Source of the DNA: Candidatus Howiella sp. | Lineage (GTDB): Bacteria; Bacillota; Clostridia; Oscillospirales; Acutalibacteraceae | Assembly: GCA_050946935.1 (NCBI GenBank) | Contig: JBMNVR010000006.1 | Coordinates: forward strand, 22,691 to 86,690 | Direction of reading: 5' to 3' | Length of the DNA stretch: 64,000 nucleotides | Shown: piece by piece, positions 12,192-61,995 of the stretch | How the letters are laid out: the number at the start of each line of letters is the position of its first letter | How positions within the stretch are numbered: the first letter of the stretch is position 1 | Notes under the pieces: model-generated | The model's input: only the letters and a program-made list of their open reading frames with translations | The model's database searches: none | Told to the model about the DNA's origin: nothing | Translations under genes and position numbers: made by a program

Positions 12192-12395
12192 GCAACGGAG
12201 CTTTTCGCTGCAATGTGATACAGAGCCAGAACATACCTTCGGGCGTGCAAACGGGCGGGTCCTGCGCGACGGGACGCCGCGAACCATGTCAGGCGGGGAA
12301 CCGAGCAGCATTAAGGGGCACTCCCCGTGCGCCGCAGATTGCCTGTCCGTTTGCACTCCCAAGGGTATGTACCGCCGTTTGGCGGCGGCTCTGTA
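12192..12395 (+). ncRNA. ffs: Signal recognition particle RNA (long Bacillus-type scRNA/ffs)
   Basis: GGGTCCTGCGCGACGGG..GAACCATGTCAGGCGGGGAACCGAGCAGCATTAAGG..GTGCGCCGCAGATTGCCTG is near-identical to the B. subtilis scRNA domain IV region. GTGCAAACGG (12245-12254) pairs with CCGTTTGCAC (12345-12354). A terminator hairpin ACCGCCG-TTT-GGCGGCGG plus a T-run follows at ~12362-12395. The gene lies immediately upstream of dnaX, as in Bacillus. The 5' boundary is approximate. Confidence 0.75.
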
Positions 12396-18285: not shown

Positions 18286-18584
18286 AATCGTTTCCTCCTC
18301 AATTTCTTAATTTTATCGTCCGCATTTTATATAAAAAATCCACACGGCAACAATAAAATTTGTTTTTTCTTCCTATATAGAATAGCACTTTCCCATTCGA
18401 TTGTGCAATAAAAATATTGCTAAAATAAATAAAATATTTTAAATAATTAAGCCAATATCATCCTGGTTTATCATAAATATTATCAAAACAGTGTTTTTTT
18501 AAACAAGCCAGAATCATTTTTTGCAATTTTGATAAACAAGGAATGTAACCTTGTTTCCTTCTTGGATACACAGGCTAAAAAGAC

Positions 18585-18625
18585 AAAAGCAGCCTCCTGA
18601 AAAATCAGGAGGCTGCTTTTCGTTA
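18585..18625. terminator. Bidirectional Rho-independent terminator downstream of the 18675..22517 gene
   Basis: AAAAGCAGCCTCCTGA-AAAAT-CAGGAGGCTGCTTTT is a perfect palindrome with T-runs on both sides. Confidence 0.55.
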
Positions 18626-18674
18626 ACCGTTATACAAATAACCCGCGGCTGATCCGGCAAAACCCGGATGCATA

Positions 18675-21600
18675 TTACTCCGCAATCACAGCGACAACCT
18701 GATCGGTTGTGCTGAGAAGAATGTAGCTCTGCCCATCCAGTTCATATTCCAAATAGAACATAGCGGCACGAACCCTGTTTTCCAGCACGCCCTTGAGACG
18801 GAATCCGAACTGGGTATAGACCTCTATATCCGTACCCTGCTCAAAGACAATCTGCCGGATCTGCTCGGCCGAGGCATTCTTATAGTCATCCAGAACCTCG
18901 CTTCCGGTCGCGTAATACACGCCATAGGCTTTAAAGATGATGCCCGATTCATTAATCTCGCCGACCGAAGTATTCGCTCCCGGAACGATCGAACCATTCC
19001 AGGTAATATCGTACTTTCCGTCTTCGGCATTGGCGGTCACCATGCCGGTGCTGATCTGCACCGACATTTCAACCTTATCGGCGATATCCGCGATCAGTTG
19101 GAGGTCGGAAAGCGCCGCCTCAATCGCGTCGGCATAGCCGTCGACGACCGATTGCTCAGTGATCTTTTTGCCCTCGACCACCGCGTTCACCGCTTCTTCC
19201 AAAACCAACCAGCTTTCCGGCGTGTAGTTGGCCTGGGTCAGAGCGGCTGCCTTGGCCTTTGCCGTATTGACCCTCGAATAATCGGCGTCTTTTATCTCCA
19301 GCCCGGTCACTGCGCTCTCAATCGCGGAGGCATAGTCGTCCACCGTAGACTGAGCCGCAGGGGCAAGGTTGTATTCCACCGCATCCACAGCAGCAGTCAG
19401 AGCGTCCGCACTCGCGTCGGTATAGATCGAAAGATCGGCGGGGACCTTGGCCAGCGCGGCCAAAACCGCGTCATAGTTGGCTTCTTTCGTCGTGATCAGC
19501 GCCAGCTCTCCAAGCTGCATCTTGCCGACCGAGGACATGGTAAAGGCCGCCTTGAAATAGGTATAGCCTTCGGTTGCGCTGTCCAGATACATGGTAACCG
19601 GGGTATTATTGGTCGTCGGCAGGCTCAAGGCCGAGTTGATAATCTCGGTCCAGCTCTGACCCTCGTCATTGGAACCGTACAGAATCCAGGAGACCGGGTT
19701 GCGTCCGCCCGGCGTATTGTCCGCAACCGCGGTATCTCCGCCGGTGGAGAGGATATAGCCCGAGATCTTAACCGGCGTGGCCGTACTGAACACGGTATCC
19801 ACATAGCTGTCATTATTCATATACAGCTTATTGGTATAGTCGCCGTCGAACAGCTTCTCATAGCCCTCACTATCGTGCTCCCGTCCAGAGATCGGGGTGA
19901 CATACTTCGCGTTGTCATAAACTTCCAGCGCGTCGACCAGCGCGTCATAGGCCGCGCGGGCGGCAGTCAGGGTCGCATAATTGGTTACATAGACACGCGC
20001 GTCGACCAGAAGATCGGCATAAGCTGCCTCGGCCGCTTCGATGGCGGACAGCTTGTTGCCGGACGGGCCGAGGGTGGTCACCTCGCCAATCGCATCGATC
20101 AAAGCAACGACCGGCGCAGCCATCGTCTGAAGCTCTTCTTCGCTCAGCGTACTTTCAAAACCGTCGGCGGTCAATACGCCCTTGGCAAAGACCAGACGCT
20201 CAGCCGTAGACTCTGTCGCATTCAAATCGCCCGTACCCGAGAAGAAGGCAGTAGCGCCGCCCTTGGCGTCGATGACCGCCGCCATATCTCCGGTAATAAC
20301 ATAGCCGTTGCCAGCAGCAGTCTTCAACTGCGCCTCATACCCTTCGGCATCGGTGGCCAGCGCCACACTGCTGAGAATATCACCCGTGCTCAGCAAAACG
20401 GCCGAGCCATCATCGCTTTGGAAATTCTGATAATAGGTATTCTCGCCCGCGAGACCGGCGTTGGCCGTGGGATACCCGAGCGTCTTACCCGCCCACTTGT
20501 TGGTTTGCGCATAGTTGGCGTACATATACCGGAACACGTTGCCGATCGCAGCAGCATAGTCGCCGGATCCGGGGTAGGTCGCGACGGAATCTACCGTGAT
20601 GCTCTTCCCGTTTTCGCGCGGGGTGGTAACGTGCGAGATGGTTTTATCCCACATGACCTGATAGGTCCGCCCGTCGGCGGTCAGATCAAATTCCTCGCCC
20701 AGCGGCGCCTGCTTGTGATTATCGTTTACAACCATGTAGCCGCCGACATCAAAGGCCATTCCACTGAACGGCACAATCAGGTAGGACCAGTACCGTCCGT
20801 CCTGATTCCAGGGGTTCCAACAGTTGTCATTGGCGCCATTCTTGCCGATATCCACAAACTTGTTATCGAGCTGTGCGCCAAACACGCTGTCATGGTTTTC
20901 GGTTGACCCGGTGCGGCCGGAGACAACACCGATGTTAATCATCCGTTCGGAGTAGAAATATTTGACCGTATCCTCCATCGCGCGAAGGGTGGTGTTCCAC
21001 TCGTCGTCGGTCTGGAGCGCCAGCCAAGGCTGGTTGGTCGCAGTCATACGATCGCGGTTCAAAGTAAAGGTAACGCCAAAGTCGGCAATGACCTGCGCAT
21101 AGGTCGCCTTGGCATTCTTCGCGTCAGCATAGTTGACCACATAGGTCTGCACATCCGTCTCGCCCAAAGCAGAGACCGCATCGGTGTAAATTGCCTCGAT
21201 CGCATCCAGACTGGTTTTGGATTTATAGGTGATCGGCATGACCGCCTTGATCGCTTCGATCGTGTTGTAGATATAGGTATAATCCTTGCCGTCCGCTTTG
21301 GCCTGCGCGATGGCCGCCGGCGCGGTGAGATCGGCAATATTGGAGACATATGCCTGATTCTCCACGCTCAGAGCCGCATACGCATCCCGCGCGGCGTCAA
21401 CCGCTTCGAAATACGCGTCGGTGAGCGGCTCAGTGGAAGCAATCGCGGCAATCAGCGCCTCCGTCTCCTCGATCGCAGCCGTGCCCGAATACACGCTGCC
21501 ATAGGTCCGCCACTCATCGAACTGGCAATAGCCGCTGGTGATGTTTCTGAAAGCGGTAATCTCCAATTTGTAATAGGAATATTCGGCCGGGCTGTCCACC

Positions 21601-22517
21601 TTGAACATGGTGTCTACCCAGCAGCAGCGCGTCTCTGACGCAGGGGTAAAATCGGTCACCGCGTCGATCAGCGTGTAATCCTTTCCGTCAGAGGAGCCGT
21701 AGAAATTCCAGGATTTCGGATCGCGCTCGCTGCTGTCGTTGGCCGTCATATAGGTATAAGCGTACACCGTGGTCGGCACGGTCGTCGTATAGGTCAGAGT
21801 GGGCACCTCGCCCGCGTCGAAATTGATGCCCATTTTGTTGCCGAGACCGGCAAAAAGCTTAGCCGGGCCTTCCCCGCCATCGGCCCCGGTTTTGCTGCGG
21901 CTTCCCGAAACAACCTTTGCGTTATCGGCATCCACATAGGAGGTCAGATCAGTAATGGCATCCTTGTAAAAATACATCTGCCGGGCATTGGCCACGGCGG
22001 AATACCCCTCCTCGCCGATATACTCGACTGAAATGGTCTGTGTACCCGTCAGTCCCGCAAAGGAGACGATGGTCGAGAGATTGCGATTCTCCCAACTGGC
22101 ATCGGAGGACCGGGTATAGGGCGGCAGCTTCACATTGCCAAGCAACGTGCAGTTTGCAGGATCAGTCCAGTAGTTGCCAAGATAGACGTTGGCGTTGGCC
22201 GAAGCCGGGCAGCGGTTATCCGTGCTGCGCCCCGAATAGTGGATTTGCATCGATGAGTAGGTTCCTTCCCCGAATTCGATGCTGTAAACCGCGACCGAAC
22301 CGTTGATCGTACTGATGTTGCTCGTCTCATTCGCAACACCGTAGTTGCCGTTGGAATTGGTTTCGGTCTTGCTGGTTGCACCAATGGTGGTGTTGCACTC
22401 TACCGTTAGGTAGTCGGCCGATGCATACTCGGCCACGACTGTAAACATAGCCATCGGCAAAGCCGAAAGACACAGGCAGACAGCGAGCAACACAGCAAGC
22501 AGCTTCTTTGCTTTCAT
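18675..22517 (-). CDS. Giant (~1280 aa) secreted multi-module protein. Modules: CBM-like N-terminal domain, two F5/8 type C modules, several FIVAR helical repeats, a ~300-aa central domain of unknown function, and the conserved C-terminal module
   Basis: Start MKAKKLLAVLLAVCLCLSALPMAMF at 22517 with RBS AGGAGGAAAAATC. First discoidin segment DPKSWNFYGSSDGKDYTLIDAV..YYKLEITAF. Second discoidin segment YEKLFDGDYTNKLY..NPVSWILYGSNDEGQSWTEI. C-terminus KYDITWNGSIVPGANT..YILLSTTDQVVAVIAE. Confidence 0.8.
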   Translation of the reverse strand: MKAKKLLAVLLAVCLCLSALPMAMFTVVAEYASADYLTVECNTTIGATSKTETNSNGNYGVANETSNISTINGSVAVYSIEFGEGTYSSMQIHYSGRSTDNRCPASANANVYLGNYWTDPANCTLLGNVKLPPYTRSSDASWENRNLSTIVSFAGLTGTQTISVEYIGEEGYSAVANARQMYFYKDAITDLTSYVDADNAKVVSGSRSKTGADGGEGPAKLFAGLGNKMGINFDAGEVPTLTYTTTVPTTVYAYTYMTANDSSERDPKSWNFYGSSDGKDYTLIDAVTDFTPASETRCCWVDTMFKVDSPAEYSYYKLEITAFRNITSGYCQFDEWRTYGSVYSGTAAIEETEALIAAIASTEPLTDAYFEAVDAARDAYAALSVENQAYVSNIADLTAPAAIAQAKADGKDYTYIYNTIEAIKAVMPITYKSKTSLDAIEAIYTDAVSALGETDVQTYVVNYADAKNAKATYAQVIADFGVTFTLNRDRMTATNQPWLALQTDDEWNTTLRAMEDTVKYFYSERMINIGVVSGRTGSTENHDSVFGAQLDNKFVDIGKNGANDNCWNPWNQDGRYWSYLIVPFSGMAFDVGGYMVVNDNHKQAPLGEEFDLTADGRTYQVMWDKTISHVTTPRENGKSITVDSVATYPGSGDYAAAIGNVFRYMYANYAQTNKWAGKTLGYPTANAGLAGENTYYQNFQSDDGSAVLLSTGDILSSVALATDAEGYEAQLKTAAGNGYVITGDMAAVIDAKGGATAFFSGTGDLNATESTAERLVFAKGVLTADGFESTLSEEELQTMAAPVVALIDAIGEVTTLGPSGNKLSAIEAAEAAYADLLVDARVYVTNYATLTAARAAYDALVDALEVYDNAKYVTPISGREHDSEGYEKLFDGDYTNKLYMNNDSYVDTVFSTATPVKISGYILSTGGDTAVADNTPGGRNPVSWILYGSNDEGQSWTEIINSALSLPTTNNTPVTMYLDSATEGYTYFKAAFTMSSVGKMQLGELALITTKEANYDAVLAALAKVPADLSIYTDASADALTAAVDAVEYNLAPAAQSTVDDYASAIESAVTGLEIKDADYSRVNTAKAKAAALTQANYTPESWLVLEEAVNAVVEGKKITEQSVVDGYADAIEAALSDLQLIADIADKVEMSVQISTGMVTANAEDGKYDITWNGSIVPGANTSVGEINESGIIFKAYGVYYATGSEVLDDYKNASAEQIRQIVFEQGTDIEVYTQFGFRLKGVLENRVRAAMFYLEYELDGQSYILLSTTDQVVAVIAE

Positions 22518-23087
22518 GATTTTTCCTCCTTCATATATTCCGTTTTCAGAACACCGAAAGTTATTTGGCCACAAAAACAGGTGTTTTTACGACACACTTG
22601 CTCAAACTTCACTATATTTTTACAAAAATCCGGAGAAGCTTTAAGCACAATAACTATCTTCCTATTATGTATAGCACATTTTGAAAAATAATTATATAAA
22701 AATTGTGCTCTAAAATTCCAAATTTTTGTTTTAAAATGTTTCAATTGAATCCACACTGAAAGATTCTCGCCTTTTTATTCACTTGAAGGATTCAAGCGTG
22801 GTAAAATTTTGTTAAATAGTATTTTTTTGTTATAGTCTGCTCGAATTTTTCCTTTACAACCATCCATTTGATAACAAAAGAACATCTTTTCTGAAAGAAT
22901 ACTCCAAAAAAGAAGAATTCGCCTTTTTTACACAGCACCATATGTTCGGGTCAGTAAATTGTCATATTTTTTCAATTTATTTGTATTATAGTTAAAACAA
23001 CTTAACTTTTTATTGATTTTTATGGACTATATTGTATAATATTAAGCATAAAGTTTATGTTTAGTATGTTATAGGAGGTAAAAGACA

Positions 23088-41717: not shown

Positions 41718-41815
41718 GAAATTTAAATACTATTTTTTATTGCTTCGCAATAAAAACGCGATTTCTATGCCCTCCCCCTCGTCCGCTTTCGCGCGGCAAT
41801 CGGGGAAGCCGGCGG
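41718..41815 (-). repeat. Solo partial copy of the terminator-like repeat unit found 5x in tandem at 52345-53020, in inverse orientation, immediately downstream of the glycyl-radical enzyme stop
   Basis: ATTGCTTCGCAATAAAAACGCGATTTCTATGCCCTCCCCCTCG..CGGCAATCGGGGAAGCCGGCGGCAAAAAATA matches the reverse complement of the array unit ATTGCTCCGCAATAAAAAACGGGATTTCAATGCCCTCCCCCTCGCCGCC..GGCGGCAAAAAATA. It contains a hairpin plus T-run in the sense of the upstream gene. Confidence 0.6.
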
Positions 41816-41848
41816 CAAAAAATACAAGAGGCAACGTCGGACAAAACT

Positions 41849-43924
41849 CTATAGCCCCAGTTCCATCCGGCGCATAATATGAGCCTGAAACTCCGGATCC
41901 AACTCGACAAAATAGCCGCTCCACCCCCATACCCGCACGATCAGGTTGCGATAGTTCTCGGGATGGCGTTGCGCATCCTCCAGCGTCTCGCGATTGACCG
42001 TGTTGAGCTGAAGCTGATGTCCGCCCGAGTCGATAAAAAATTTGACCAGCGCGCCAACCTTGGCCACGCTCCCCTCCCCCCGGAAGACCGAATCATGCAG
42101 CTCGATGGTCAACGGCCCGCCGTTCATTGCGCGTCTCAGGTCCTGCCGCGCAAAAGAACGGATGATCGAAACCGGGCCGGGACACTCGCTGAACAGGCTG
42201 GGGGAGAAATTGGCCGCCAGCGGCTCGTCCTTCCGGCGGCCGTCGGGGGTCGCGGGCAAGCCCTCTCCATAATAAATATAATACATCGCCGTGCCTGTTC
42301 CGGCGCGGAAAATGCCGCCCCGGTCGTTGCGCCGTCCCTCCAGCGCATCGGCAAAGGCATCGAGCAGCGTGCCGGCAATCCCGTCGGTGAGATCGTCGCC
42401 CTGTCCCATCTTGGGCGCGCGGTAGCGCAGTTTGTTCAACAGGCGGTCATATCCTTCAAAATTCTTTTTCAACGCGTCGATCAGCTCCGCTTTTCCAACC
42501 GAGCCGTCGCCGAACACATACCGCCGGATGTTTCCCAGTGAGTCGGCCGCCGTCGCCAGGCCGCAGCCGTGAAAACCGTAATTGTTGTACCGTCCCCCGC
42601 GGGAGATGTCACCGTACTCTTCCGCCGGCTGCATCATCAGGGAAACAAAAGGCGCCGGCCGGATGTAGAGGCGCCGCACCTTTTCACACAGCGCATTGAC
42701 CTGCCCGGTGATCCGGCGGACGACCGCGGCGAAAAAGGCGTCGTAATCCGCCGCCCCCTCCAGCTCGGCAAAGACCGCCTCCTCTACCGCGAGGGGGAAA
42801 GAAACCGCGCCGATATTCGGCACATCCATCGCCTTTTCGGGAATGATAAACTCCCAGCAGGCGGCGACAACGTAGTTGTAAGCATCCTCTTTGGCATAGC
42901 CCCAGTCCAACAGCGCGGGGATTACCGCGTCATCGTTGGAATACTGCGGGAATCCGGTGCCGCAGCGGGTCAACTCGGACCCTAAGCTATACACCTCCGC
43001 CGGGGTGTTTTTATGCACCCGAAGATTGATCTTCGGGTCGATCAGATGCAGTTCCAGACTGGCCTTGAGACAAAGCTCACTGAGCAGATTATAGCTGTCT
43101 CTGCCGTCCGGGTGCAGCCCGCCGAGCACCATGCTCTGCCCGTTGTCTCCCTGTTGAACGCCGGGGTACAGGTCGCTGTCCCGGTTGAAAGTGAGGAAAA
43201 ATTCCTCCACCAGCTCGAGTGCTGTGTCGTAGGTATAAAGGCCGGCCGCCATATCCTTTTCAAAATACGGAGCCATGTACTGATCAAACCGGCCGACCGT
43301 ATTGTGCCAGTTGGCCGAAAGCCAGAGGGTATAATGAATAATCCGGAACATCTGCAAAGCTTCGAGAAAGCTTTCCGGAGGATATTCCGGCACCCGGGCA
43401 AGCGTTTTCGCCACCGTGTCGTTGCCGACCCGCTCAGCCTCCGCCCGGTAGCGGCCGGCCAACGCCATAACCTCCTCCAGTATCGCGATTTGAAAACCGA
43501 GATAGTCGGCCTTCTCCGCCCGGCCGTCGGCAAGATATTCTGCCTGCTTCCGGGACAGTCGCTCGCACATGCCGGCAAAGCCAACCGACATCAGAGCCGC
43601 ATAATTCGGGCTGATGTTGCTAACGTCCCCCCGCTCGTGTATATAGTGGGTTTTGCGGATTTCCTCCCACTCCTCCGGCGTGTGTAACTCGGGGATGACC
43701 GGTATTGTGCGGAGAAAGGCAATCCGCTCCTCCGGGAAAACCACCGGCTTTTCCTCCCGCAGCATAAGGCAGAGGCGCCGCGCCGCCCGCTCCTCATCCG
43801 AAAAACCCTGCGCGCAAAATTCCCGCGCGAGGGCGTACGGATCACTGATCGGCGTCCGGCGCAAGGCGCGATGGGATTGCTCCACCACAAAGAAGCGGCG
43901 TAGATTTTCAATTCGTTCGATCAT
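41849..43924 (-). CDS. Glycyl radical enzyme (PFL-like family, eliminase-type C-x-E active-site loop), 691 aa
   Basis: C-terminal glycyl radical motif LIVRVWGWSGYFVEL. Putative thiyl loop VVAACWEFIIPE (Cys-x-Glu, as in GRE dehydratases/lyases). The start overlaps the activase stop (ATGA). Confidence 0.85.
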   Translation of the reverse strand: MIERIENLRRFFVVEQSHRALRRTPISDPYALAREFCAQGFSDEERAARRLCLMLREEKPVVFPEERIAFLRTIPVIPELHTPEEWEEIRKTHYIHERGDVSNISPNYAALMSVGFAGMCERLSRKQAEYLADGRAEKADYLGFQIAILEEVMALAGRYRAEAERVGNDTVAKTLARVPEYPPESFLEALQMFRIIHYTLWLSANWHNTVGRFDQYMAPYFEKDMAAGLYTYDTALELVEEFFLTFNRDSDLYPGVQQGDNGQSMVLGGLHPDGRDSYNLLSELCLKASLELHLIDPKINLRVHKNTPAEVYSLGSELTRCGTGFPQYSNDDAVIPALLDWGYAKEDAYNYVVAACWEFIIPEKAMDVPNIGAVSFPLAVEEAVFAELEGAADYDAFFAAVVRRITGQVNALCEKVRRLYIRPAPFVSLMMQPAEEYGDISRGGRYNNYGFHGCGLATAADSLGNIRRYVFGDGSVGKAELIDALKKNFEGYDRLLNKLRYRAPKMGQGDDLTDGIAGTLLDAFADALEGRRNDRGGIFRAGTGTAMYYIYYGEGLPATPDGRRKDEPLAANFSPSLFSECPGPVSIIRSFARQDLRRAMNGGPLTIELHDSVFRGEGSVAKVGALVKFFIDSGGHQLQLNTVNRETLEDAQRHPENYRNLIVRVWGWSGYFVELDPEFQAHIMRRMELGL

Positions 43925-44775
43925 AAAACCACGCTCCTGATTGCGTATTTTGAAAAGGCGGCAAACGCCGTCCTCGGCGTCCGGGCGGTATCGAACCCCG
44001 GCGCGTATTTCCGTCCAAGCATCGGATATTTCGCCGCTGCCGCCCGATTATAGGGCAACAGCTCAACCCGGTCGAGATGTCCCATTCCTCCCTCCGCCAA
44101 AAAGGCGGCCGTATGTTCCATATTCTCCTCCGTATCGTTGACACCGGGAATCAGCGGAATACGGATGCAGTAAGGCAGTCCGCTGCGCTTCAACAACCGG
44201 ATGTTGTCGAGAATCCCCTTGTTTGTCCGGCCGGTATAGCGCTCATGCACCGCGCTGTCGAAGATTTTCAGATCGGCGAAAATATATTCAACACGGGAGA
44301 GCAGAGCCTCAAACACCTCCGGTGCCGCGCAGCAGGAGGTTTCGACCGCCCGATGGATCCCGGAAAGGCGGTCGAGCGTCTCAAACAAAAAGGCGGGCTG
44401 CATCAGCGGCTCCCCGCCCGAGAAGGTCACCCCCCCGCCCGACGCGGTATAAAAGCCGGCGTTTTTCCGCAGCCGGCCGGCCAGCTCGGCCGAGGTCAGC
44501 CGCTCTCCCACGATTTTGCGCAGACCATTCGGACAGACCTCGGTACACACGCCGCAGGCCGTGCAGCCCTCCGGACTCGGGCAGACCGCCCGGCAGCGGC
44601 CGCACCCGGTGCAGGAGGCAGTGCGCACCATCAGCTCCGGCTGTGTACGCTGTCCCTCGGGGTTGTGGCACCAGGTACAGCGCAACGGACATCCCTTCAA
44701 AAAAGCGGTCGCCCGAACACCCGGCCCGTCATGCACCGTAAATTCCGATATATTGATCAGTGTACCGGTTTCCAC
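43921..44775 (-). CDS. Glycyl-radical enzyme activating protein (radical SAM, with auxiliary ferredoxin-like cluster domain)
   Basis: CPLRCTWCHNPEG is a CxxxCxxC radical-SAM motif. Extra Cys clusters: CTGCGRCRAVCPSPEGCTACGVCTEVCP. GTG start at 44775 with RBS GGGAGAG. Confidence 0.85.
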   Translation of the reverse strand: METGTLINISEFTVHDGPGVRATAFLKGCPLRCTWCHNPEGQRTQPELMVRTASCTGCGRCRAVCPSPEGCTACGVCTEVCPNGLRKIVGERLTSAELAGRLRKNAGFYTASGGGVTFSGGEPLMQPAFLFETLDRLSGIHRAVETSCCAAPEVFEALLSRVEYIFADLKIFDSAVHERYTGRTNKGILDNIRLLKRSGLPYCIRIPLIPGVNDTEENMEHTAAFLAEGGMGHLDRVELLPYNRAAAAKYPMLGRKYAPGFDTARTPRTAFAAFSKYAIRSVVL

Positions 44776-45389: not shown

Positions 45390-47801
45390 TCAAATAGGAT
45401 TGGTAAAAGAAGCAAAGCCCAAAATGGATCCGTTCAAAGCGCGCAGCTTCCGGAAAACCTCTTCCGCAGGCCGCGGGCCGTCCAGGGTCAGAGAATAGTG
45501 ATACTCATGGAACCCGGCCAGGCTCACCTTAAAGTTGGTCTCCCAGAAATTGTTCATCACCCAAGCATAGATTTCATCCAAATTCTCCGCACCCGGTTCC
45601 CCGCACAGCCGAATCTCATGGGCGGGCAGAGGCCCCATGGTGACCAGCGGCGTATCGGGCAGGCCGATGGTCAGGGTGGCATTTGCCGAGGACAGGCAGA
45701 GGCCGTTTTGCACCGCATAAAAATCAGTACAGGTACCGGGCAACTGATCCACGCGCGGACGGAAAACGCACCCGGTCTTATCCATCCACAGGGTCTCCTC
45801 CTCCCCGGTGGTAAACGGCAGGGCGAGATATACGTTCTCCGGATCCCACACACAGTCCTTCTGAAAGCGCAGCGCCAGATCTATGCGGGGCATATGCTTA
45901 TACGCGGTCAGGATCAGATAACAGAATTGGCAGCCCTCCAGCGCATACTGTAGCTGCACGCGGGAGAAAAGAGGCCCGTCCGCCAACACCTTTGCGCCGC
46001 AGCATACGCCGGCCGAGCGTTTTGTGGCCGAAGACTTGCGATTCCGTCCCATCTCCCGCCGGACGCCGCAGGGATCACCGTTGCCCGGCGTAACCTCATA
46101 GATCGGGGTAAAGGCGGCATATTCTCCGGGTTTTATCAGTTCTTTTCCCCGCGCCTTATCCCAGAGGGAAACAATCCCCCGCTGATCGTATTGAATATGG
46201 AAAAATTCGTTCTCCAGCCGGTACGGCGTGACCACCGACCCCGTTTCCAGCCGGCGCTGGAAGGTGGAATACAGATCATATACCCCTTCAATACCCCTGT
46301 CCGCCCGGCGGCCGGAGGATATAGGTGCGGGCGTCTCAGTCTCCCGAATGCCGTATTCTCTCTGCTCGCCCGGCTCCAGCCGAACCAGAATGTTCAGCTC
46401 CACCCCCCGGGCATAAGAACTGAGCTGATACGGAACCGGGCGGCCGGTAGCCGTATCTACAATTTCAAAATGAGTATGGCCGGCCAAACTCTCGGAATTG
46501 ATCCGCATCACGTCGGTCACCGGTACATCGTGGGGATTTACAGCCCGGAAAACCGGCTCGTTCTGCATGGAATAAGGCGTGGCACCCCGGGAATAGGCGA
46601 TTTTGTCCAGCGCCCGCGAAGCCGACTCGTTGGCCTTCAGAGCATAGAGGCTCTTGCGCAGATCCAAATTATTCACACAGGTATTCCACGGCTCGGACAC
46701 TGAAGAGCAGTAGCCCCAGGTATGCTCGGCGTAAAACATCAGGTTATAGGCCGTGTCGTCCAGCAGCTCTTTTCCGCAGATTTCCCCCTCTGGATCCAGC
46801 CGGCGCGCCATCTCATACTTGCGCTCGGCCTCCCGATAGTGCTGCACCACATTGGGCGTGGAGCCCACCCCGTCGGCCCACCAGTCGGTCCAATCCCCCC
46901 GGTAGGTGGGAATATCCCCGCAAGAGTCCTCCACCGCGTCGAAAAATTCATCCAGCGTGGCCATTTGCAGCCGAATTTCCTCCCCGTGCAGCGCATTGTA
47001 CCGGTTGACAAATTCCACCGCGCCCACATAAGGCGAACCGTTGTCGGTCTGACGGCTGGAATAGGTGACGGGCGCCAAATCATAGGGATGGCCCTGCTTC
47101 TTCAGTGTGTCTACATAAGTGGCTATGCGGATTTCAGCCTTGTGGAAAGGCTCCAGGCCGGCGCCGTCCAATCCGTCCTGGATGGTATATTCAAAGGATT
47201 GTACCGGCGCGACGCCCAGCTCGTTGCCCAAATGATAGTGCTCACCCACCCAGGAAAGCAGGCGATTGCCCTTGGGGCTCTCCCAATAAAAAGGGGTCTG
47301 CTTTTGAAACAGAGGATGATAGCCGTGATGGGTATGAATGCAGGAAAGCAGGCGGGTGACGCCGTTTTCATACAGCGCGTCGGCAAAACCCCAGCCGTAG
47401 CCGTTAACGTCGGCCGTCATAGCCGAACGCATCAAAAGGCCGTGCGCCTCCATTCCGGCCGCCGAACGGCGCACGGCGTCCGACAGCACGTCGTAGGAAA
47501 TCAGGTCAGTGAGGTTCAGATAGCTGCCGGACAGGCCGATCTCACCGGATTTCACAAAACGGATAAAATCCTCCCTCTCCCGGAGATCGGCAAGCTCAAA
47601 GAACTTCTCCACACACCAGAAGCTTTCGCAGTTCCACTTAAAGCCCAGCCATTCCGGCCGATCACTGTGGGCCTGACGCAGAATCCGAATCGCCTCCTGA
47701 ATATACTGTACCTGATGCAGCTCAATCTTTTCCTGATAATCGGTATAGCCGATATCGGTGTGGCTGTGATGAATCAAATATAAAGTAAAAGGCTTGGGCA
47801 T
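45390..47801 (-). CDS. Glycoside hydrolase family 38-like (alpha-mannosidase-type) cytoplasmic enzyme
   Basis: Start ATG at 47801 with RBS GGAGGAAAACAAT. N-terminal LYLIHHSHTDIGYTD resembles the GH38 metal-binding HxHxD motif. ~800 aa with no signal peptide. Family assignment is by motif resemblance only. Confidence 0.6.
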   Translation of the reverse strand: MPKPFTLYLIHHSHTDIGYTDYQEKIELHQVQYIQEAIRILRQAHSDRPEWLGFKWNCESFWCVEKFFELADLREREDFIRFVKSGEIGLSGSYLNLTDLISYDVLSDAVRRSAAGMEAHGLLMRSAMTADVNGYGWGFADALYENGVTRLLSCIHTHHGYHPLFQKQTPFYWESPKGNRLLSWVGEHYHLGNELGVAPVQSFEYTIQDGLDGAGLEPFHKAEIRIATYVDTLKKQGHPYDLAPVTYSSRQTDNGSPYVGAVEFVNRYNALHGEEIRLQMATLDEFFDAVEDSCGDIPTYRGDWTDWWADGVGSTPNVVQHYREAERKYEMARRLDPEGEICGKELLDDTAYNLMFYAEHTWGYCSSVSEPWNTCVNNLDLRKSLYALKANESASRALDKIAYSRGATPYSMQNEPVFRAVNPHDVPVTDVMRINSESLAGHTHFEIVDTATGRPVPYQLSSYARGVELNILVRLEPGEQREYGIRETETPAPISSGRRADRGIEGVYDLYSTFQRRLETGSVVTPYRLENEFFHIQYDQRGIVSLWDKARGKELIKPGEYAAFTPIYEVTPGNGDPCGVRREMGRNRKSSATKRSAGVCCGAKVLADGPLFSRVQLQYALEGCQFCYLILTAYKHMPRIDLALRFQKDCVWDPENVYLALPFTTGEEETLWMDKTGCVFRPRVDQLPGTCTDFYAVQNGLCLSSANATLTIGLPDTPLVTMGPLPAHEIRLCGEPGAENLDEIYAWVMNNFWETNFKVSLAGFHEYHYSLTLDGPRPAEEVFRKLRALNGSILGFASFTNPI

Positions 47802-48021
47802 ATTGTTTTCCTCCTTGGCAATATATCTCTCCCGTATAAGGGCATTATAAGACACTCATCATCCTTTCGCAAGCTTTTTTGTCAAACCGCATTCCCCACC
47901 CGGACGCGCACATTACCCTGACCCCGGTTGGCGCGGGGGAACATGGCGAGAAGAATAAAATGTAATATTAATAGAAAAAAACACCCCGTGCCGGGGTGTT
48001 TCCAAAAAACAATGTCCTATT

Positions 48022-50841: not shown

Positions 50842-51339
50842 GGTGTCACTTCCTTTTTGGATTGCCGTTTTAAATGGTTTCCCTTTCGGCGATTTTATAA
50901 TACTATACCCATAAGAAAAATTTGCATACTTTTTGCGTATAAACTGTAAATAAATTAAGAACAAGCAAAACCGACACCGTGCGACAATCGTAACGATGCA
51001 AAACACAGGCTTGGGTCCGTCGGCCGCGCGGGATACGCCCTCCGCCGCAGCCCGCGCGCCGTCCGACAGCAACCGAGCCAAAACCGAAAGCGTCCCGGGC
51101 TGCGTTCGGTATTTGTACAACTTTTTTAAAATATCGCAGCACACCAGTGTCAAATCATCTTTTGACGAGATATTTCGCGCCCCGCATGTCATGATTTTAC
51201 AATATTTTTAGGACAAATGCGAAAAAATTCTTTACAATTTCCTTTTGTACATGCTATAATAAAGCCATCGTCGGCAGACAAAATCATTTGCACATCTTGG
51301 CCTGTCTGCTCCCGACAGTCTATGGTAGGAGGTTTCGGT

Positions 51340-52359
51340 ATGGTATATGACCTGTACGATAAAAAGCTGCTGACCGAGCCGGGATATTACCCTGTCATTC
51401 AATCCTATTATTATAATGAGTGGAACACCTACGACATGCCGCAGCATTTCCACAGCCGGATTGAAATCATGTATATTATTAAAGGAGACTGCACCGTCCG
51501 TTCAAGGAAAGAAAAAATTCGCATGTTTTCGGGCGATTTTATCCTGATTAACGCCGGTACGCCGCACGCCCTCTCGATCAGCAATCCGCGCGGCTGCATG
51601 GTGCTGAACATCGAATTCACCTTTGAAAAGCAGGACAACGCCGCGCCGGATTTTGCAACCCTCTATCGCAACAGCGAGGAAATGCGCAATTTTCTCGAAC
51701 AGGGATCGGAATACTTTCGGATCAAGGACGATGGAGAGGTGTACCGCATCCTTTTCTCCGCGCTGGAAAACGTCGATATTACCAAACCCAACCGGTTTGC
51801 CCTCGACCTGTGGCTGTCGCTGCTGCTCCTCTCTTCCGCGAGGCTGGCCTGTGCCGATCTCAACAACGACTCGGATGATTACATACAGTGTGCGAAAGAT
51901 TTTATCTCCCGCAACTATTTCCGGGAAATCCACATCAGCGACATTGCCGAATATATCCATATTCACCCTGCGTATTTACAGCGTCTGTTTAAAAAGGAAT
52001 GCGGCATCTCGGTGATCGACTACATGACCAACTACCGGATGGAGAAGGCTTACTACCTGCTCTCCCGCACCAATATGTCGATCATCGACATTGCCAACAG
52101 CGTCGGCATCAATTCGCAGCAATATTTCACCCGCCTGTTCAAAAAGACCATGAACATCACGCCCAAGGCGCTGCGCGACAGCAAAGCGTCGGACAATCCT
52201 CTCGCGGATCCGATCGACAACGATGTCGAGTGGACCTGGCGTCCGGGTCTGAAAAACACCGAAACCATCTGCGACAATGACCTCGACTGGCTGAACATTA
52301 TCTCCAGCGGCAAGCTGCCGGGAGATGCCCGGGGCTATAAAAAGCCGTCGGAGCAATAA
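51340..52359 (+). CDS. AraC-family transcriptional regulator (cupin N-domain plus AraC HTH)
   Basis: ATG at 51340 with RBS TAGGAGG. FHSRIEIMYIIKGD (cupin). Dual HTH ..DIAEYIHIHPAYLQRLFKKECGISVIDYMTNYRMEKAYYLL..IANSVGINSQQYFTRLFKK. Confidence 0.8.
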   Translation: MVYDLYDKKLLTEPGYYPVIQSYYYNEWNTYDMPQHFHSRIEIMYIIKGDCTVRSRKEKIRMFSGDFILINAGTPHALSISNPRGCMVLNIEFTFEKQDNAAPDFATLYRNSEEMRNFLEQGSEYFRIKDDGEVYRILFSALENVDITKPNRFALDLWLSLLLLSSARLACADLNNDSDDYIQCAKDFISRNYFREIHISDIAEYIHIHPAYLQRLFKKECGISVIDYMTNYRMEKAYYLLSRTNMSIIDIANSVGINSQQYFTRLFKKTMNITPKALRDSKASDNPLADPIDNDVEWTWRPGLKNTETICDNDLDWLNIISSGKLPGDARGYKKPSEQ

Positions 52360-53020
52360 AAAATATCCGCCAAATCAGGGTCGAATAATAAAAATCCCTG
52401 GCGGCGGATATTTTTTGCCGCCCTGTCTCCCGGTTGTCATGCGAAAGCATGACGAGGGAGACGGCATTAAAATCGTATTTTTTATTGCGGAGCAATAAAA
52501 AATATCCGCCAAATCAGGGTCGAATAATAAAAATCCCGGCGGCGGATATTTTTTGCCGCCGTCTCCCCCCGGTTGCCGCGCGTAGCGGCGGCGAGGGGGA
52601 GGGCATTGAAATCCCGTTTTTTATTGCGGAGCAATAAAAAATATCCGCCAAATCAGGGTCGAATAATAAAAATCCCTGGCGGCGGATATTTTTTGCCGCC
52701 CTGTCTCCCGGTTGTCATGCGAAAGCATGACGAGGGAGACGGCATTAAAATCGTATTTTTTATTGCGGAGCAATAGAAAATATCCGCCAAATCAGGGTCG
52801 AATAATAAAAACCCCCGGCGGCGGATATTTTTTGCCGCCATCTCCCCCGGTTGCCGCGCGCAGCGACGGCGAGGGGGAGGGCATCGGAATCCCGTTTTTT
52901 ATTGCGGAGCAATAAAAAATATCCGCCAAATCAGGGTCGAATAATAAAAACCCCGGCGGCGGATATTTTTTGCCGCCATCTCCCCCGGTTGTCATGCGAA
53001 AGCATGACGAAGGGGACGAA
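52345..53020 (+). repeat. Tandem array of ~5 units (period 138-139 bp) of a structured, terminator-like repeat. It begins inside the last codons of the AraC gene and fills the convergent intergenic region
   Basis: Unit boundaries (TTATTGCGGAGCAATAAAAAATATCCGCC) at about 52348, 52486, 52624, 52762 and 52901. Each unit holds hairpin 1 (AAAAATATCCGCC-AAAT-CAGGG..CCCTG-GCGGCGGATATTTTTT) and hairpin 2. Hairpin 2 has two alternating variants: GTCTCCCGGTTGTCATGCGAAAGCATGACGAGGGAGAC versus TCTCCCCCCGGTTGCCGCGCGTAGCGGCGGCGAGGGGGAGGG. Both keep their pairing, and both are followed by a T-run. Confidence 0.8.
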
Positions 53021-53215
53021 ACTTGGAATACGAAGTGTTGCTTAGCCGCACGAAAAAGGCACGCTCCGCCTGGCAGCGTCTGTAGCCTGCCTTGCAAACG
53101 ATAAAACATCCACAGCCGGGAAAACCATGGTTCCCCGACTGTGGATGTTTTTGATCTGTGAATCCATAAACTTTTCGATCTCTCCAAGCAGGCATGCGGC
53201 GTTCATGCCCAACCT

Positions 53216-61834: not shown

Positions 61835-61878
61835 ACAGTCCATCCTCCCGGAAGTTTTGGCCACAAACCGCAGCAAAC

Positions 61879-61934
61879 ATTAACGTTAACATTAACGTTA
61901 ATCATACTATAACATCGAATCAACAAAATGTCAA
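61879..61934 (-). promoter_or_regulatory. Near-consensus sigma-A promoter (TTGACA-17-TATAGT) followed by tandem ATTAACGTTAA(C/T) palindromes, upstream of the dockerin enzyme gene
   Basis: Minus-strand reading: TTGACAttttgttgattcgatgtTATAGTatgATTAACGTTAATGTTAACGTTAATgtttgc. Same architecture as 44806-44860. Confidence 0.55.
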
Positions 61935-61995
61935 TAGGAAAATCGTGCTTTTTTTGATGCCCTGCAATAAAAAACACGATTTAAAATTCCACATA

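What the first reader, a model, noticed from the sequence alone, without database searches (positions are those of the whole stretch)
52345..53020. Five tandem ~138-bp structured repeat units with compensatory stem changes; a solo copy terminates the glycyl-radical operon
The array starts within the last codons of the AraC gene (stop at 52357-52359 lies inside GAGCAATAAAAAA). It has period 138-139 bp, with unit starts at about 52348, 52486, 52624, 52762 and 52901.

Each unit has two parts. The first is a nested hairpin (AAAAATATCCGCC..CAGGG-loop-CCCTG..GGCGGATATTTTTT). The second is a hairpin that alternates between two variants: GTCTCCC-GGTT-GTCATGC-GAAA-GCATGAC-GAG-GGAGAC and TCTCCCCCC-GGTT-GCCGCGC-G(T/C)AG-CG(G/A)CGGC-GAG-GGGGGAGGG. 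The last unit is a hybrid of the two. Both strands of each stem changed together, so pairing is preserved. This is the signature of selection on structure (RNA, or DNA cruciform).

Both hairpins are followed by T-runs in the sense of the upstream gene. A diverged solo copy (41718-41815) sits in the equivalent orientation directly after the GRE stop codon. It has a third covariant of hairpin 2 (..CTTCCCCGATTGCCGCGCGAAAGCGGACGAGGGGGAGGG..).

This is not a CRISPR array: units are 138 bp and there are no unique spacers. Possible readings: a family of mobile or duplicating terminator modules, a tandem sRNA or attenuator array, or a protein-binding array.
Basis: seen in the sequence. Interest (0 to 1): 0.7.

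Follow-up and report, generated by a model that had tools for sequence, protein, structure and literature searches.

The report
Dispersed hairpin-repeat family, local tandem array
The 670-bp run of 139-bp hairpin-forming units after the AraC-type regulator gene is real, and it is a local expansion of an apparently undescribed non-coding repeat family scattered through gut Oscillospiraceae genomes, which most likely folds as single-stranded DNA and is not a dedicated terminator or small-RNA array.

Summary
There are 4.8 head-to-tail copies of a 139-bp unit at 52349-53018. Each unit has a junction palindrome (P), a long A/T-flanked hairpin (H1) and a bulged hairpin (H2) in two covarying variants. 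A diverged solo copy lies after the glycyl-radical enzyme gene.

The array is absent from a sister species (94% AraC identity), so it is a recent gain. It belongs to a modular family (P + H1 + H2 type A or B + linker). I found this family in many Oscillospiraceae genomes, as solos and as arrays of 83-150-bp units. It is absent from Rfam and from viral contigs, and sequence-string and keyword searches of the literature found no description.

H2 shows strong covariation. The elements sit in convergent, co-directional and divergent intergenic regions alike. Their orientation does not follow neighbouring genes. It favours the G-rich (replication leading-sequence) strand in 36 of 45 clusters.

On that strand, every hairpin is capped by a GC-GNA-GC or GC-GNNA-GC motif. 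These are the "mini-hairpin DNA" motifs, which are far more stable as DNA than as RNA.

Best reading: a REP/BIME- or BOX-like mosaic repeat that acts as single-stranded DNA hairpins and is amplified locally. The terminator/sRNA reading is weaker but not excluded. How the family spreads is unknown.

The parts
52349..53018 (+). Tandem array: 4 full 139-bp units (52349, 52488, 52627, 52766) plus a fifth unit (52905-53018) that ends after hairpin 2. A degenerate linker/P-like tail runs to about 53051.
   Evidence: TRF; the repeat finder; unit alignment; limits of the insertion relative to the sister species, 52353-53051.
52353..52363 (+). Half of the junction palindrome (GCAATAAAAAA) at the left edge of the array. 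It contains the AraC stop codon TAA (52357-52359).
   Evidence: Sequence; ORF end; codon-by-codon homology with the sister species' last codons.
52358..52416 (+). Hairpin H1 of unit 1: AAAAAATATCCGCC ... CAGGG-loop-CCCTG ... GGCGGATATTTTTT. It recurs every 139 bp. It is an A-tract/T-tract-flanked long hairpin, the only terminator-like module.
   Evidence: Folding.
52420..52465 (+). Hairpin H2 of unit 1 (type A). It has an outer GCC/GGC stem, a CT bulge, stem P1 (GTCTCCC/GGGAGAC), a GG bulge, an invariant TTG/CGA, stem P2 and a GCGAAAGC cap. Units 2 and 4 carry the variant with a C-rich P1 and a GCGTAGC or GCGCAGC cap.
   Evidence: Folding; family alignment and covariation; motif list.
52478..52502 (+). 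Junction palindrome P (TTTTTTATTGC-GGA-GCAATAAAAAA). It also occurs at 52617-52641, 52756-52780 (one A>G change) and 52895-52919. Its core GCGGAGC is a GNA mini-hairpin motif on the + strand.
   Evidence: the repeat finder family D7; loop statistics; motif scan.
41733..41826 (-). Solo module on the minus strand: T-run, H2 (type A, GA instead of GG bulge, GCGAAAGC cap), linker and a full P (GCGAAGC core). There is no H1.
   Evidence: Sequence; covariance-model hit at 65.9 bits, E about 1e-10.
51217..52359 (+). AraC-family regulator gene. Its likely true start is 51322 or 51340, judged from homologues. Its last codons and stop abut and overlap the array.
   Evidence: Pfam; homologues.
53104..53150 (.). 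Ordinary bidirectional terminator hairpin shared by the convergent genes. It is conserved in the sister species that lacks the array.
   Evidence: Terminator scan; sister-species sequence and alignment.
41849..44775 (-). Glycyl-radical enzyme (41849-43924) and its radical-SAM activase (43921-44775), upstream of the solo module.
   Evidence: Pfam PFL-like, Gly_radical, Radical_SAM.

Best explanation
The array is a locally amplified copy of a non-coding, modular, dispersed repeat family of Oscillospiraceae chromosomes. In kind it is comparable to REP/BIME, BOX or REPIN/PATE elements.

A unit consists of:
- H1, an A6-stem-loop-stem-T6 hairpin.
- H2, a bulged hairpin of interchangeable types.
- A linker of about 12 nt.
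- P, the palindrome T6ATTGC-GNA-GCAATA6, which lies between consecutive units.

The biologically relevant form is most likely single-stranded DNA of one particular strand. On that strand all three hairpins are capped by GC-GNA-GC or GC-GNNA-GC 'mini-hairpin DNA' motifs, and H2 keeps an invariant T.G wobble and a 5' GG bulge. That strand is preferentially the G-rich strand, which has the sequence of the lagging-strand template.

Shown: the anatomy, family membership, covariation, strand asymmetry, strand bias, recent gain at this locus, and absence of coding capacity, of promoters and of an Rfam match.

Inferred:
1. Copies spread between intergenic sites and expand into arrays by a replication-associated process. 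Candidates are template switching or unequal exchange at the A6/T6 tracts, or an unidentified trans-acting single-strand DNA enzyme.
2. Stem pairing is kept because hairpin formation is needed for that process, or by palindrome-templated correction.
3. At this locus the first H1 + T-run incidentally ends the AraC transcript, and the remaining units have no RNA role.
For: - Family: the P pattern found 111+ stretches, mostly in Oscillospiraceae/Ruminococcaceae genomes. Many are arrays of period 83-150 bp. The module order H1-H2-linker-P recurs, with H2 types A and B alternating in one array (L074) and inverted modules elsewhere (L026, L048, L049).
- Recent gain: the sister species (94% AraC identity, 10 contigs) has only 11 nt where the window has about 700 nt. 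Two further relatives lack it.
- Covariation: on 103 distinct modules, 95.2% of cells are paired against 82.5% in shuffles and about 50% when partners are slid. 21 of 26 pairs have changes on both sides.
- Not gene-linked: convergent: co-directional: divergent is about 10: 20: 9, and orientation against the upstream gene is 29: 19.
- Strand bias: the forward strand is the G-rich strand in 36 of 45 clusters (p = 7e-5 against 50%) and in 27 of 36 loci (p = 0.004). In Anaerofilum hominis, one contig carries nearly all '-' copies and another all '+'.
- Strand asymmetry: the forward strand folds better than its reverse complement in 91 of 103 modules. The P loop is GNA in 71 of 88 modules and TNC in 2. 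Mini-hairpin motifs number 151 on the forward strand and 25 on the reverse, at 12 per kb against 2.2 per kb background.
- Literature (PMC13037366): of the 64 possible GCNNNGC sequences, only those with a GNA loop form the DNA mini-hairpin (Tm 70-76 C). r(GCGAAAGC) melts at 39 C against 76.5 C for the DNA. IS200/IS605-type elements act on the lagging-strand template (PMC6006769).
- No Rfam family matches. No promoter-like sites lie in the units. The family is absent from viral contigs.
Against: - No transposase or other trans-acting gene was found near the elements, and whole genomes could not be searched.
- Element ends are not sharply defined and no target-site duplication was seen. The mode of spread is therefore unproven.
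- The G-rich-strand bias (75-80%) is only modestly above that of protein-coding genes in the same loci (62-65%). It does not by itself separate a replication-coupled DNA element from an independently transcribed gene.
- The window's own array lies on the C-rich strand, an exception to the rule.
- GNRA caps, G.U pairs and better forward-strand folding are equally expected for an RNA made from the forward strand.
- All loci were collected with an exact P pattern, so the apparent invariance of P is partly built in.
- Gene calls in related loci came from my own simple caller.
Confidence: 0.55

Rival explanations
1. RNA-level modules. Each unit is a transcription terminator and/or a small structured RNA (H2 - linker - P - H1-U6). 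Arrays would be stacks of terminators, or tandem sRNA genes, that protect or end neighbouring transcripts.
For: - H1 is an A-tract/stem/T-tract hairpin like a bidirectional intrinsic terminator.
- Several solos start right at a stop codon. Here the first unit directly follows, and supplies, the AraC stop.
- The forward strand folds 4 kcal/mol better with RNA parameters, and many caps are GNRA tetraloops.
- The leading-strand bias resembles that of genes.
- Covariation is compatible with an RNA.
Against: - Elements occur equally between divergent gene starts and antisense to the upstream gene.
- No sigma-70-like promoter lies in the units, and each unit's H1 + T-run would block read-through into the next unit.
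- The solo after the GRE gene lacks H1, and no terminator is scored there.
- The sister species manages with the ordinary terminator that the window also retains.
- Modules occur inverted within units.
- The P cap is a GNA triloop, which is especially stable in DNA rather than RNA.
- There is no Rfam match.
Confidence: 0.2
2. Host-beneficial single-stranded DNA signals. The hairpin clusters on the lagging-strand template would act as SSB-excluding priming or restart signals, like the G4 phage complementary-strand origin or RSF1010 ssiA, and not as selfish DNA.
For: - The mini-hairpin motifs found here (GCGAAAGC, GCGNAGC) are the class reported at primase-dependent ssDNA origins, ssiA and N4 hairpin promoters. 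They bind SSB poorly (PMC13037366).
- There are three hairpins per 100-139 nt.
- The strand bias favours the lagging-strand template sequence.
Against: - Presence or absence differs between sister species, and copy number is variable.
- About 20% of copies, including this array, are in the 'wrong' orientation.
- Nothing links the family to replication proteins. This rests on analogy only.
Confidence: 0.1
3. Duplex-DNA protein-binding array. P (TTATTGC-N3-GCAATAA) would be the operator or centromere-like site of a dimeric DNA-binding protein, and H1/H2 would be spacers.
For: P is a perfect 11+11 palindrome whose arm sequence, not only its pairing, is conserved across genera. It is regularly spaced in arrays.
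Against: - The 3-nt spacer is strongly strand-asymmetric (GNA 71, TNC 2), and its polarity is coupled to that of H2. A symmetric dimer on duplex DNA would not impose this.
- The conservation of P is partly due to how loci were collected.
- H1 and H2 show structure-preserving covariation, which is not expected for spacers.
- Dozens of sites lie next to unrelated housekeeping genes.
Confidence: 0.05
4. Neutral satellite. The array is junk produced by slippage. The 'compensatory' stem changes arise mechanically through intrastrand templated correction of quasi-palindromes, with no selection on structure.
For: - The 278-bp super-period, the identical units 1 and 3, and the hybrid unit 5 show recent duplication or conversion.
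- Templated correction of quasi-palindromes is an established mutational mechanism (general knowledge).
Against: - The same architecture persists across many genera, with diverse stem sequences. This includes an invariant bulge, a T.G wobble, asymmetric loop caps and the coupled polarity of three hairpins.
- Templated correction would erase bulges and wobbles, not conserve them.
Confidence: 0.08

Closest known systems
REP / BIME elements (and REPINs) of Proteobacteria
   Same: These are short, imperfect, extragenic palindromes present in many copies. They are clustered into mosaic arrays of variable copy number, with several hairpin subtypes in one genome, and are thought to be handled as single-stranded hairpins.
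   Different: There is no GTAG/CGTC tag. Units are head-to-tail, not alternating inverted pairs. Each unit holds three different hairpins plus a junction palindrome. No RAYT gene was found. The host phylum is Bacillota. The REP survey I checked mentions no Firmicutes or Clostridia.
BOX elements of Streptococcus pneumoniae (boxA-boxB(n)-boxC)
   Same: These are modular, non-coding, hairpin-forming intergenic repeats of Firmicutes. They have interchangeable or tandemly repeated modules and no transposase of their own.
   Different: The sequence and module set are unrelated. The present family has a strand bias, mini-hairpin caps and a palindromic junction between units. This comparison rests on my own knowledge of BOX, not on a test here.
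IS200/IS605 family and their non-autonomous derivatives (PATEs)
   Same: Function depends on imperfect hairpins with unpaired bases on one DNA strand. There are no clear terminal inverted repeats or target duplications. Orientation is linked to the lagging-strand template (PMC6006769).
   Different: No Y1 (HUH) transposase motif was found in 120+ loci. No conserved target tetranucleotide or pentanucleotide was identified. Tandem arrays are not typical of that family.
Mini-hairpin DNA motifs at single-strand origins (phage G4/St-1, RSF1010 ssiA, N4 vRNAP promoters)
   Same: The cap sequences are the same (GCGAAAGC, GCGNAGC with GGA/GAA/GCA), sitting on 5-bp stems in clusters of hairpins read on one strand (PMC13037366).
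   Different: Those are single functional sites in phages or plasmids. Here there are dozens of chromosomal copies and arrays, and no evidence of priming or transcription initiation.
Intrinsic (rho-independent) bidirectional terminators
   Same: H1 is an A-tract, GC-containing stem, T-tract hairpin. The first copy sits right after a stop codon.
   Different: The family is not restricted to gene ends or to one orientation. H2, the linker and P have no role in termination. The solo copy lacks H1.
Integron attC sites / CALIN arrays
   Same: These are arrays of 57-141-nt imperfect hairpins with extrahelical bases that fold from one DNA strand. A full site lies at one end of each unit and a partial site at the other.
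   Different: The conserved R' core GTTRRRY is absent. There are no cassette ORFs and no integrase. To my knowledge integrons are not known in this phylum.

Membership tests
CRISPR array | Short (about 23-50 bp) identical repeats separated by unique spacers of similar length | tested here: not met
   The whole 139-bp unit repeats and there is no unique sequence between units.
Any Rfam 15 RNA family | Covariance-model score at or above the family's gathering threshold | tested here: not met
   No hit in the window array, the solo, or 16 related loci. Only weak chance matches appear at E up to 10.
REP/BIME | High-copy extragenic imperfect palindromes of 20-40 nt | tested here: met
   H2 hairpins of about 35-45 nt occur in intergenic DNA.
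REP/BIME | Conserved GTAG or CGTC tag at one end of the palindrome | tested here: not met
   Sequences 5' of H2 vary (CGGCC, TGGCC, TAGCC, AGTAGCC, ATACGC, GCCGCC). No constant tetranucleotide is present.
REP/BIME | Pairs of REPs in alternating (inverted) orientation within clusters | tested here: not met
   Arrays are head-to-tail. Inverted modules are exceptions.
REP/BIME | Cognate RAYT (Y1 transposase) gene, usually flanked by REPs | tested here: inconclusive
   No HUH/Y1 motif was found in six-frame translations of the sampled loci, and genes between elements are housekeeping genes. Whole genomes could not be searched.
MITE (TIR transposon derivative) | Terminal inverted repeats flanked by a target-site duplication | tested here: inconclusive
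   The two halves of P would be 11-bp TIRs separated by 3 nt in arrays. The window's array starts exactly with GCAATAAAAAA. However, most solos have only an A-run or AATAAAAAA on the left and a full P on the right, and no duplicated flank was seen.
IS200/IS605-type single-strand elements (PATE-like) | Orientation bias placing the active strand on the lagging-strand template | tested here: met
   36 of 45 clusters (27 of 36 loci) have the forward strand on the G-rich strand, and one strand predominates per contig in A. hominis. Caveats: GC skew is a proxy, and the bias is only modestly above that of genes.
IS200/IS605-type single-strand elements (PATE-like) | Insertion 3' of a conserved short target sequence; Y1 transposase in trans | tested here: inconclusive
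   Left flanks often end in (GC)AATAAAAAA or an A-run, but they are heterogeneous. No transposase was found.
Intrinsic terminator | GC-rich hairpin immediately followed by a T-run, located downstream of a gene in sense orientation | tested here: inconclusive
   H1 has the shape of a terminator, and the first copy follows the AraC stop. The simple scan does not score it, and the family shows no preference for gene ends or sense orientation.
Mini-hairpin DNA motif | GC-GNA-GC or GC-GNNA-GC sequence on the folding strand | tested here: met
   There are 9 exact motifs on the + strand of the array (GCGGAGC x4, GCGTAGC, GCGCAGC, GCGAAAGC x3). Family-wide, 151 lie on the forward strand and 25 on the reverse. 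The definition is from PMC13037366. Actual folding was not measured.
Integron attC | Conserved R''/R' core (RYYYAAC ... GTTRRRY) and an integron integrase | tested here: not met
   By inspection, no GTTRRRY/RYYYAAC pair bounds the H2 hairpins in the family alignments. The closest string, GGTTGCC, does not fit GTTRRRY. No integrase was seen among neighbouring genes.

The most novel reading that the evidence does not exclude
The family could be a new kind of replication-coupled, single-stranded-DNA element in Bacillota. It would be either a non-autonomous mobile cassette whose circle or tandem junction is the GC-GNA-GC mini-hairpin palindrome P, processed by a still unknown enzyme, or a set of chromosomal hairpin signals that exclude SSB and recruit primase or restart proteins on the lagging-strand template. 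In either case it would be the first REP-like system described for Clostridia, and a natural genome-wide use of the 'mini-hairpin DNA' motif.
Probability: 0.2. Interest if true: 0.8.

Novelty: new variant of a known kind. Interest (0 to 1): 0.55.

Why it matters
Dispersed hairpin repeats (REP/BIME, REPIN, BOX) shape genome architecture, mRNA fate and strain typing in Proteobacteria and streptococci. The literature I could search describes nothing comparable for the Oscillospiraceae, a dominant family of the human gut.

This family is widespread, breaks short-read assemblies, can rewrite gene ends (here the last codons and the stop of a regulator), and varies between sister species. It is therefore useful for strain typing, and relevant to MAG quality.

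That makes it a natural test bed for whether such motifs act in vivo on the lagging-strand template.

Tried and rejected
- CRISPR: rejected, because there are no spacers.
- Rfam: no family at gathering thresholds or at E up to 10 in the window, or at gathering thresholds in 16 related loci.
- Coding: unit lengths of 83-150 bp are not multiples of 3, and the ORFs in the array are frame-drifting artefacts.
- Promoters: none in the units by the sigma-70 scan. By eye I also found no sigma-54, IHF, CsrA (GGA loop) or kink-turn fit. These were dropped as unsupported.
- Transposase search: Pfam on 10 genes lying between elements gave only housekeeping families. A regex for IS200/RAYT motifs in six-frame translations gave nothing.
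- Metagenome scan: the H1/H2 junction pattern was too unspecific. 119 of 120 loci were chance hits, and only L223 was relevant.
- Viral contigs: one chance hit. Plasmids: no match for the window's own two-unit query; a two-unit query from Anaerofilum hominis (L018) matched only three Subdoligranulum variabile records.
- Literature: sequence strings and keyword searches found no description.
- Type I-C CRISPR repeats: H2-P1 plus the linker (..GGGAG-GGC-ATTGAAAT) resembles the 3' end of these repeats. I judged this coincidental, because the linker varies across the family.
- G.T versus A.C counts in stems (11 vs 5) were too few to use.
- Exact look-ups for same-species contigs gave only two short contigs from one sample. 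One of them breaks inside the array, so copy-number comparison was impossible.
- Other half-P matches in the window (12063, 18405, 26837) are chance AT-rich or coding sequence.
Full report
**1. The observation**

Tandem Repeats Finder reports one array at 52349-53018. It has a period of 139 bp and 4.8 copies, and the 278-bp super-period is 95% identical. The repeat finder places copies at 52349, 52488, 52627 and 52766.

In an alignment of the units, unit 1 equals unit 3. Units 2 and 4 differ at about nine positions. Unit 5 is a hybrid that ends after the second hairpin.

The upstream ORF 51217-52359 is an AraC-family regulator (Pfam). Its TAA lies inside GAGCAATAAAAAA.

Folding gives two strong hairpins per unit. 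Each full unit has an energy of -58 to -61 kcal/mol and a z-score of -3 to -7. The whole array has z = -15.9.

The solo copy is on the minus strand, about 25-33 nt after the stop of the PFL-like/glycine-radical ORF 41849-43924. The description is therefore correct apart from a 1-4-nt drift of the unit starts.

**2. Anatomy**

Each unit, read on the + strand, has four parts.
- H1: AAAAAATATCCGCC ... GGCGGATATTTTTT, with a nested upper stem.
- H2: an outer GCC/GGC stem, a 2-nt bulge, a variable stem P1, a GG bulge, an invariant TTG/CGA (T-A, T.G, G-C), a variable stem P2 and a cap.
- A linker of about 12 nt.
- P: the palindrome TTTTTTATTGC-GGA-GCAATAAAAAA. Its A-run is also the A-run of the next H1.

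The array begins with the right half of P and ends after an H2. P therefore lies only between units.

The solo has a T-run, H2, linker and a full P, but no H1.

**3. The array is a recent gain**

The closest AraC homologue (94% identity, P0001) is carried on 21 contigs, of which the 10 retrieved show conserved gene order. In the two read at the junction (L112, L113), the gene is followed by a 200-bp spacer that holds only an ordinary bidirectional terminator, and none of the 10 contains P or a half-P. The window also keeps this terminator, at 53104-53150.

Local alignment puts the inserted material at about 52353-53051. It replaces 11 nt (CGCGTAAAGCG) of the sister sequence.

The window's last codons (CCG TCG GAG CAA TAA) line up codon by codon with the sister's (CCG CCC GAC GCG TAA).

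Two more distant relatives (87% and 80% identity) also lack the array. One of them ends its gene with AGCAATAAATAA, a half-P-like string at the same place. This suggests, but does not prove, that a pre-existing GCAATAAA favoured the insertion.

Same-species short-read contigs were found from only one sample. The one flanking the array breaks inside its last unit, so copy number could not be compared.

**4. It belongs to a large family**

I scanned one genome per species for TTTTTATTGCNNNGCAATAAAAA. Most hits are from Oscillospiraceae/Ruminococcaceae. They include Anaerofilum hominis (many loci), Gemmiger, Allofournierella, Anaerotruncus, Ruthenibacterium and many gut MAGs. Three Subdoligranulum variabile records in the plasmid collection also match.

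The same module order recurs, either as solos or as arrays of 2-5 units with periods of 83-150 bp.

H2 comes in at least two types.
- Type A is as in the window.
- Type B is GGCC-AT-GTGGGCC-loop-GGCCCAC-GGCC.

The two types can alternate in one array (L074). Some units carry inverted modules (L026, L048, L049).

Solos usually start with an A-run or (GC)AATAAAAAA before H1. They end with a full P, often followed by a partial H1. Arrays often end with an H2 unit that lacks P.

The ends are therefore heterogeneous, and no target-site duplication was seen.

A caveat: all loci were collected with an exact P, so the invariance of P is partly built in.

**5. Covariation**

I built a covariance model from 27 type-A modules. 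In the window it finds the four full modules, the solo (E about 1e-10) and the degenerate fifth module, and nothing else of note. It gives 106 hits in 84 sources.

On that alignment:
- 95.2% of pair cells are standard pairs. The figure is 82.5% in column shuffles and about 50% when partners are slid.
- 21 of 26 pairs show changes on both sides.
- 233 cells carry such double changes, against 53 expected.

The alignment is fitted to the model. However, an independent MAFFT/RNAalifold run shows the same P1 and P2 covariation, together with the invariant U-A, U.G and G-C next to the GG bulge.

**6. Not a known RNA, not coding, not obviously transcribed on its own**

Rfam 15 gives nothing at gathering thresholds, or at E up to 10, for the window. 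It gives nothing for 16 related loci.

Unit lengths are not multiples of three.

The sigma-70 scan finds no promoter-like site inside the units, in the window or in L018. It does not score H1 or the solo as terminators.

**7. Context and orientation**

I used a codon log-odds gene caller trained on the loci and checked it on the window. Across 52 oriented clusters, including those with a flanking gene missing:
- Flanking genes are convergent 10 : co-directional 20 : divergent 9.
- The upstream gene is co-oriented in 29 cases and opposite in 19.
- One divergent case (L030) was verified by hand.

The family is therefore not tied to gene ends or to the sense strand.

In contrast, the forward strand is the G-rich strand of the flanking DNA in 36 of 45 clusters in loci of at least 4 kb (p = 7e-5). 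Counting one per locus, it is 27 of 36 (p = 0.004). In A. hominis, copies on one contig are almost all '-' and on another all '+', matching the local skew.

Genes in the same loci are 62-65% on the G-rich strand. The element bias is therefore real but only modestly stronger than that of genes.

The window is uniformly C-rich on its + strand. The array is thus one of the exceptions, while the solo fits the rule.

**8. Strand asymmetry and the mini-hairpin caps**

The forward strand of the H2 region folds better than its reverse complement in 91 of 103 modules with RNA parameters (mean difference -4.0 kcal/mol). With DNA parameters the figure is 75 of 99.

Oriented by H2, the three-base loop of P is GNA in 71 of 88 modules (GGA 39, GCA 19, GAA 12, GTA 1). 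It is ANA in 11 and TNC in only 2.

The caps of H2 are mostly GTAA, GCAA, GAAA or GNA. The motifs C-GNA-G and C-GNNA-G, with a further complementary G/C closing pair outside them, occur 151 times on the forward strand and 25 times on the reverse strand of the 52 clusters. Their density is 12 per kb, against 2.2 per kb in the loci as a whole.

The window's array alone carries GCGGAGC x4, GCGTAGC, GCGCAGC and GCGAAAGC x3, all on the + strand.

A 2026 review (PMC13037366) makes these points.
- Of all 64 GCNNNGC sequences, only those with a GNA loop form the 'mini-hairpin DNA' (Tm 70-76 C).
- GCGAAAGC, GCGCAAGC and GCGTAAGC melt at 71-77 C as DNA, while r(GCGAAAGC) melts at 39 C.
- Such motifs occur at primase-dependent ssDNA origins (G4, St-1), at RSF1010 ssiA and in N4 hairpin promoters.
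- They bind SSB poorly.

A symmetric protein on duplex DNA would not impose a G..A polarity on the spacer of P.

**9. Interpretation**

The combination of features fits a REP/BIME- or BOX-like mosaic repeat whose relevant form is a set of hairpins on one DNA strand. The features are:
- high copy number and a modular mosaic build;
- variable ends;
- gain and loss between sister species;
- indifference to gene orientation;
- coupled polarity of three hairpins;
- DNA-type caps;
- a replication-strand bias.

IS200/IS605-type elements and REPs are the known systems that work on lagging-strand-template hairpins (PMC6006769). However, I found no Y1 transposase near the elements and could not search whole genomes.

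The heterogeneous ends are compatible with exchange or template switching at the A6/T6 tracts. This is inference.

At this locus, the first H1 + T-run probably ends the AraC transcript, and the other units have no evident RNA role. The solo cannot be said to terminate the GRE operon.

**10. Rivals**

An RNA reading (terminator or sRNA modules) remains possible. GNRA caps, G.U pairs and a gene-like strand bias all fit it. It is weakened by the context data, the lack of promoters, the inverted modules and the GNA triloop.

A host-beneficial priming-signal reading is an attractive analogy but is untested. A duplex protein-binding array and a purely neutral satellite are unlikely, for the reasons given under those rivals.

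**11. Novelty**

No description was found by sequence-string or keyword searches of the held literature. The family is absent from Rfam and essentially absent from viral contigs.

I class it as a new variant of a known kind, namely dispersed extragenic hairpin repeats.

Noticed in passing
window 12253-12351 (+): Bacterial small SRP RNA (Rfam RF00169, 64.9 bits), the only Rfam gathering-level hit in the window.
   Followed up: no
window 61876-61974: A 12-bp tandem AACATTAACGTT x2.2 contains the palindrome TTAACGTTAA and looks like an operator. About 50 bp further on lies a P-like palindrome with extended arms (AAAATCGTG-T7-GATGC-CCT-GCAAT-A6-CACGATTT). Its loop is CCT, not GNA, and the covariance model scores it only weakly (E about 0.2). 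It is probably not a family member.
   Followed up: partly
L245 2505-2520: In a relative with 87% AraC identity and no array, the gene ends ...AAAAAAAGCAATAAATAA and is followed by an ordinary terminator. GCAATAAA is the first 8 nt of the right arm of P, at the same position where the window's array begins. This could be a possible pre-existing target or a scar.
   Followed up: partly
L003, L015, L044, L075, L105 (Gammaproteobacteria MAG HOU_bin.0176); L024, L111 (methanotroph / mussel symbiont): In the HOU_bin.0176 MAG, the same 23-nt core TTTTTATTGC-AAA-GCAATAAAAA sits inside a longer palindrome (GGGTTAGA ... TCTAACCC). Similar longer palindromes with other flanks occur in L024 and L111. These appear to belong to a separate repeat family in unrelated bacteria.
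   Followed up: no
window 240-2930 (-): A large minus-strand ORF contains internal repeats of about 470 bp (families D2 and D6, four and three copies at 985-2493, 67-80% identity). It is presumably a repeated protein domain.
   Followed up: no
window 15673-22574 (-) and 325-713: Two adjacent large minus-strand ORFs (15673-18285, 18675-22574) share diverged paralogous segments (for example 15674-15925 vs 18676-18927, 74%). They also share shorter matches with the region 325-713.
   Followed up: no
window 41849-43924 (-): The glycyl-radical enzyme ORF is 691 aa, and its PFL-like Pfam match starts at profile position 134 of 647. It may therefore be an N-terminally short GRE, or its start may be miscalled. 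A GH38-type glycosidase gene (45390-47855) lies next to the operon.
   Followed up: no
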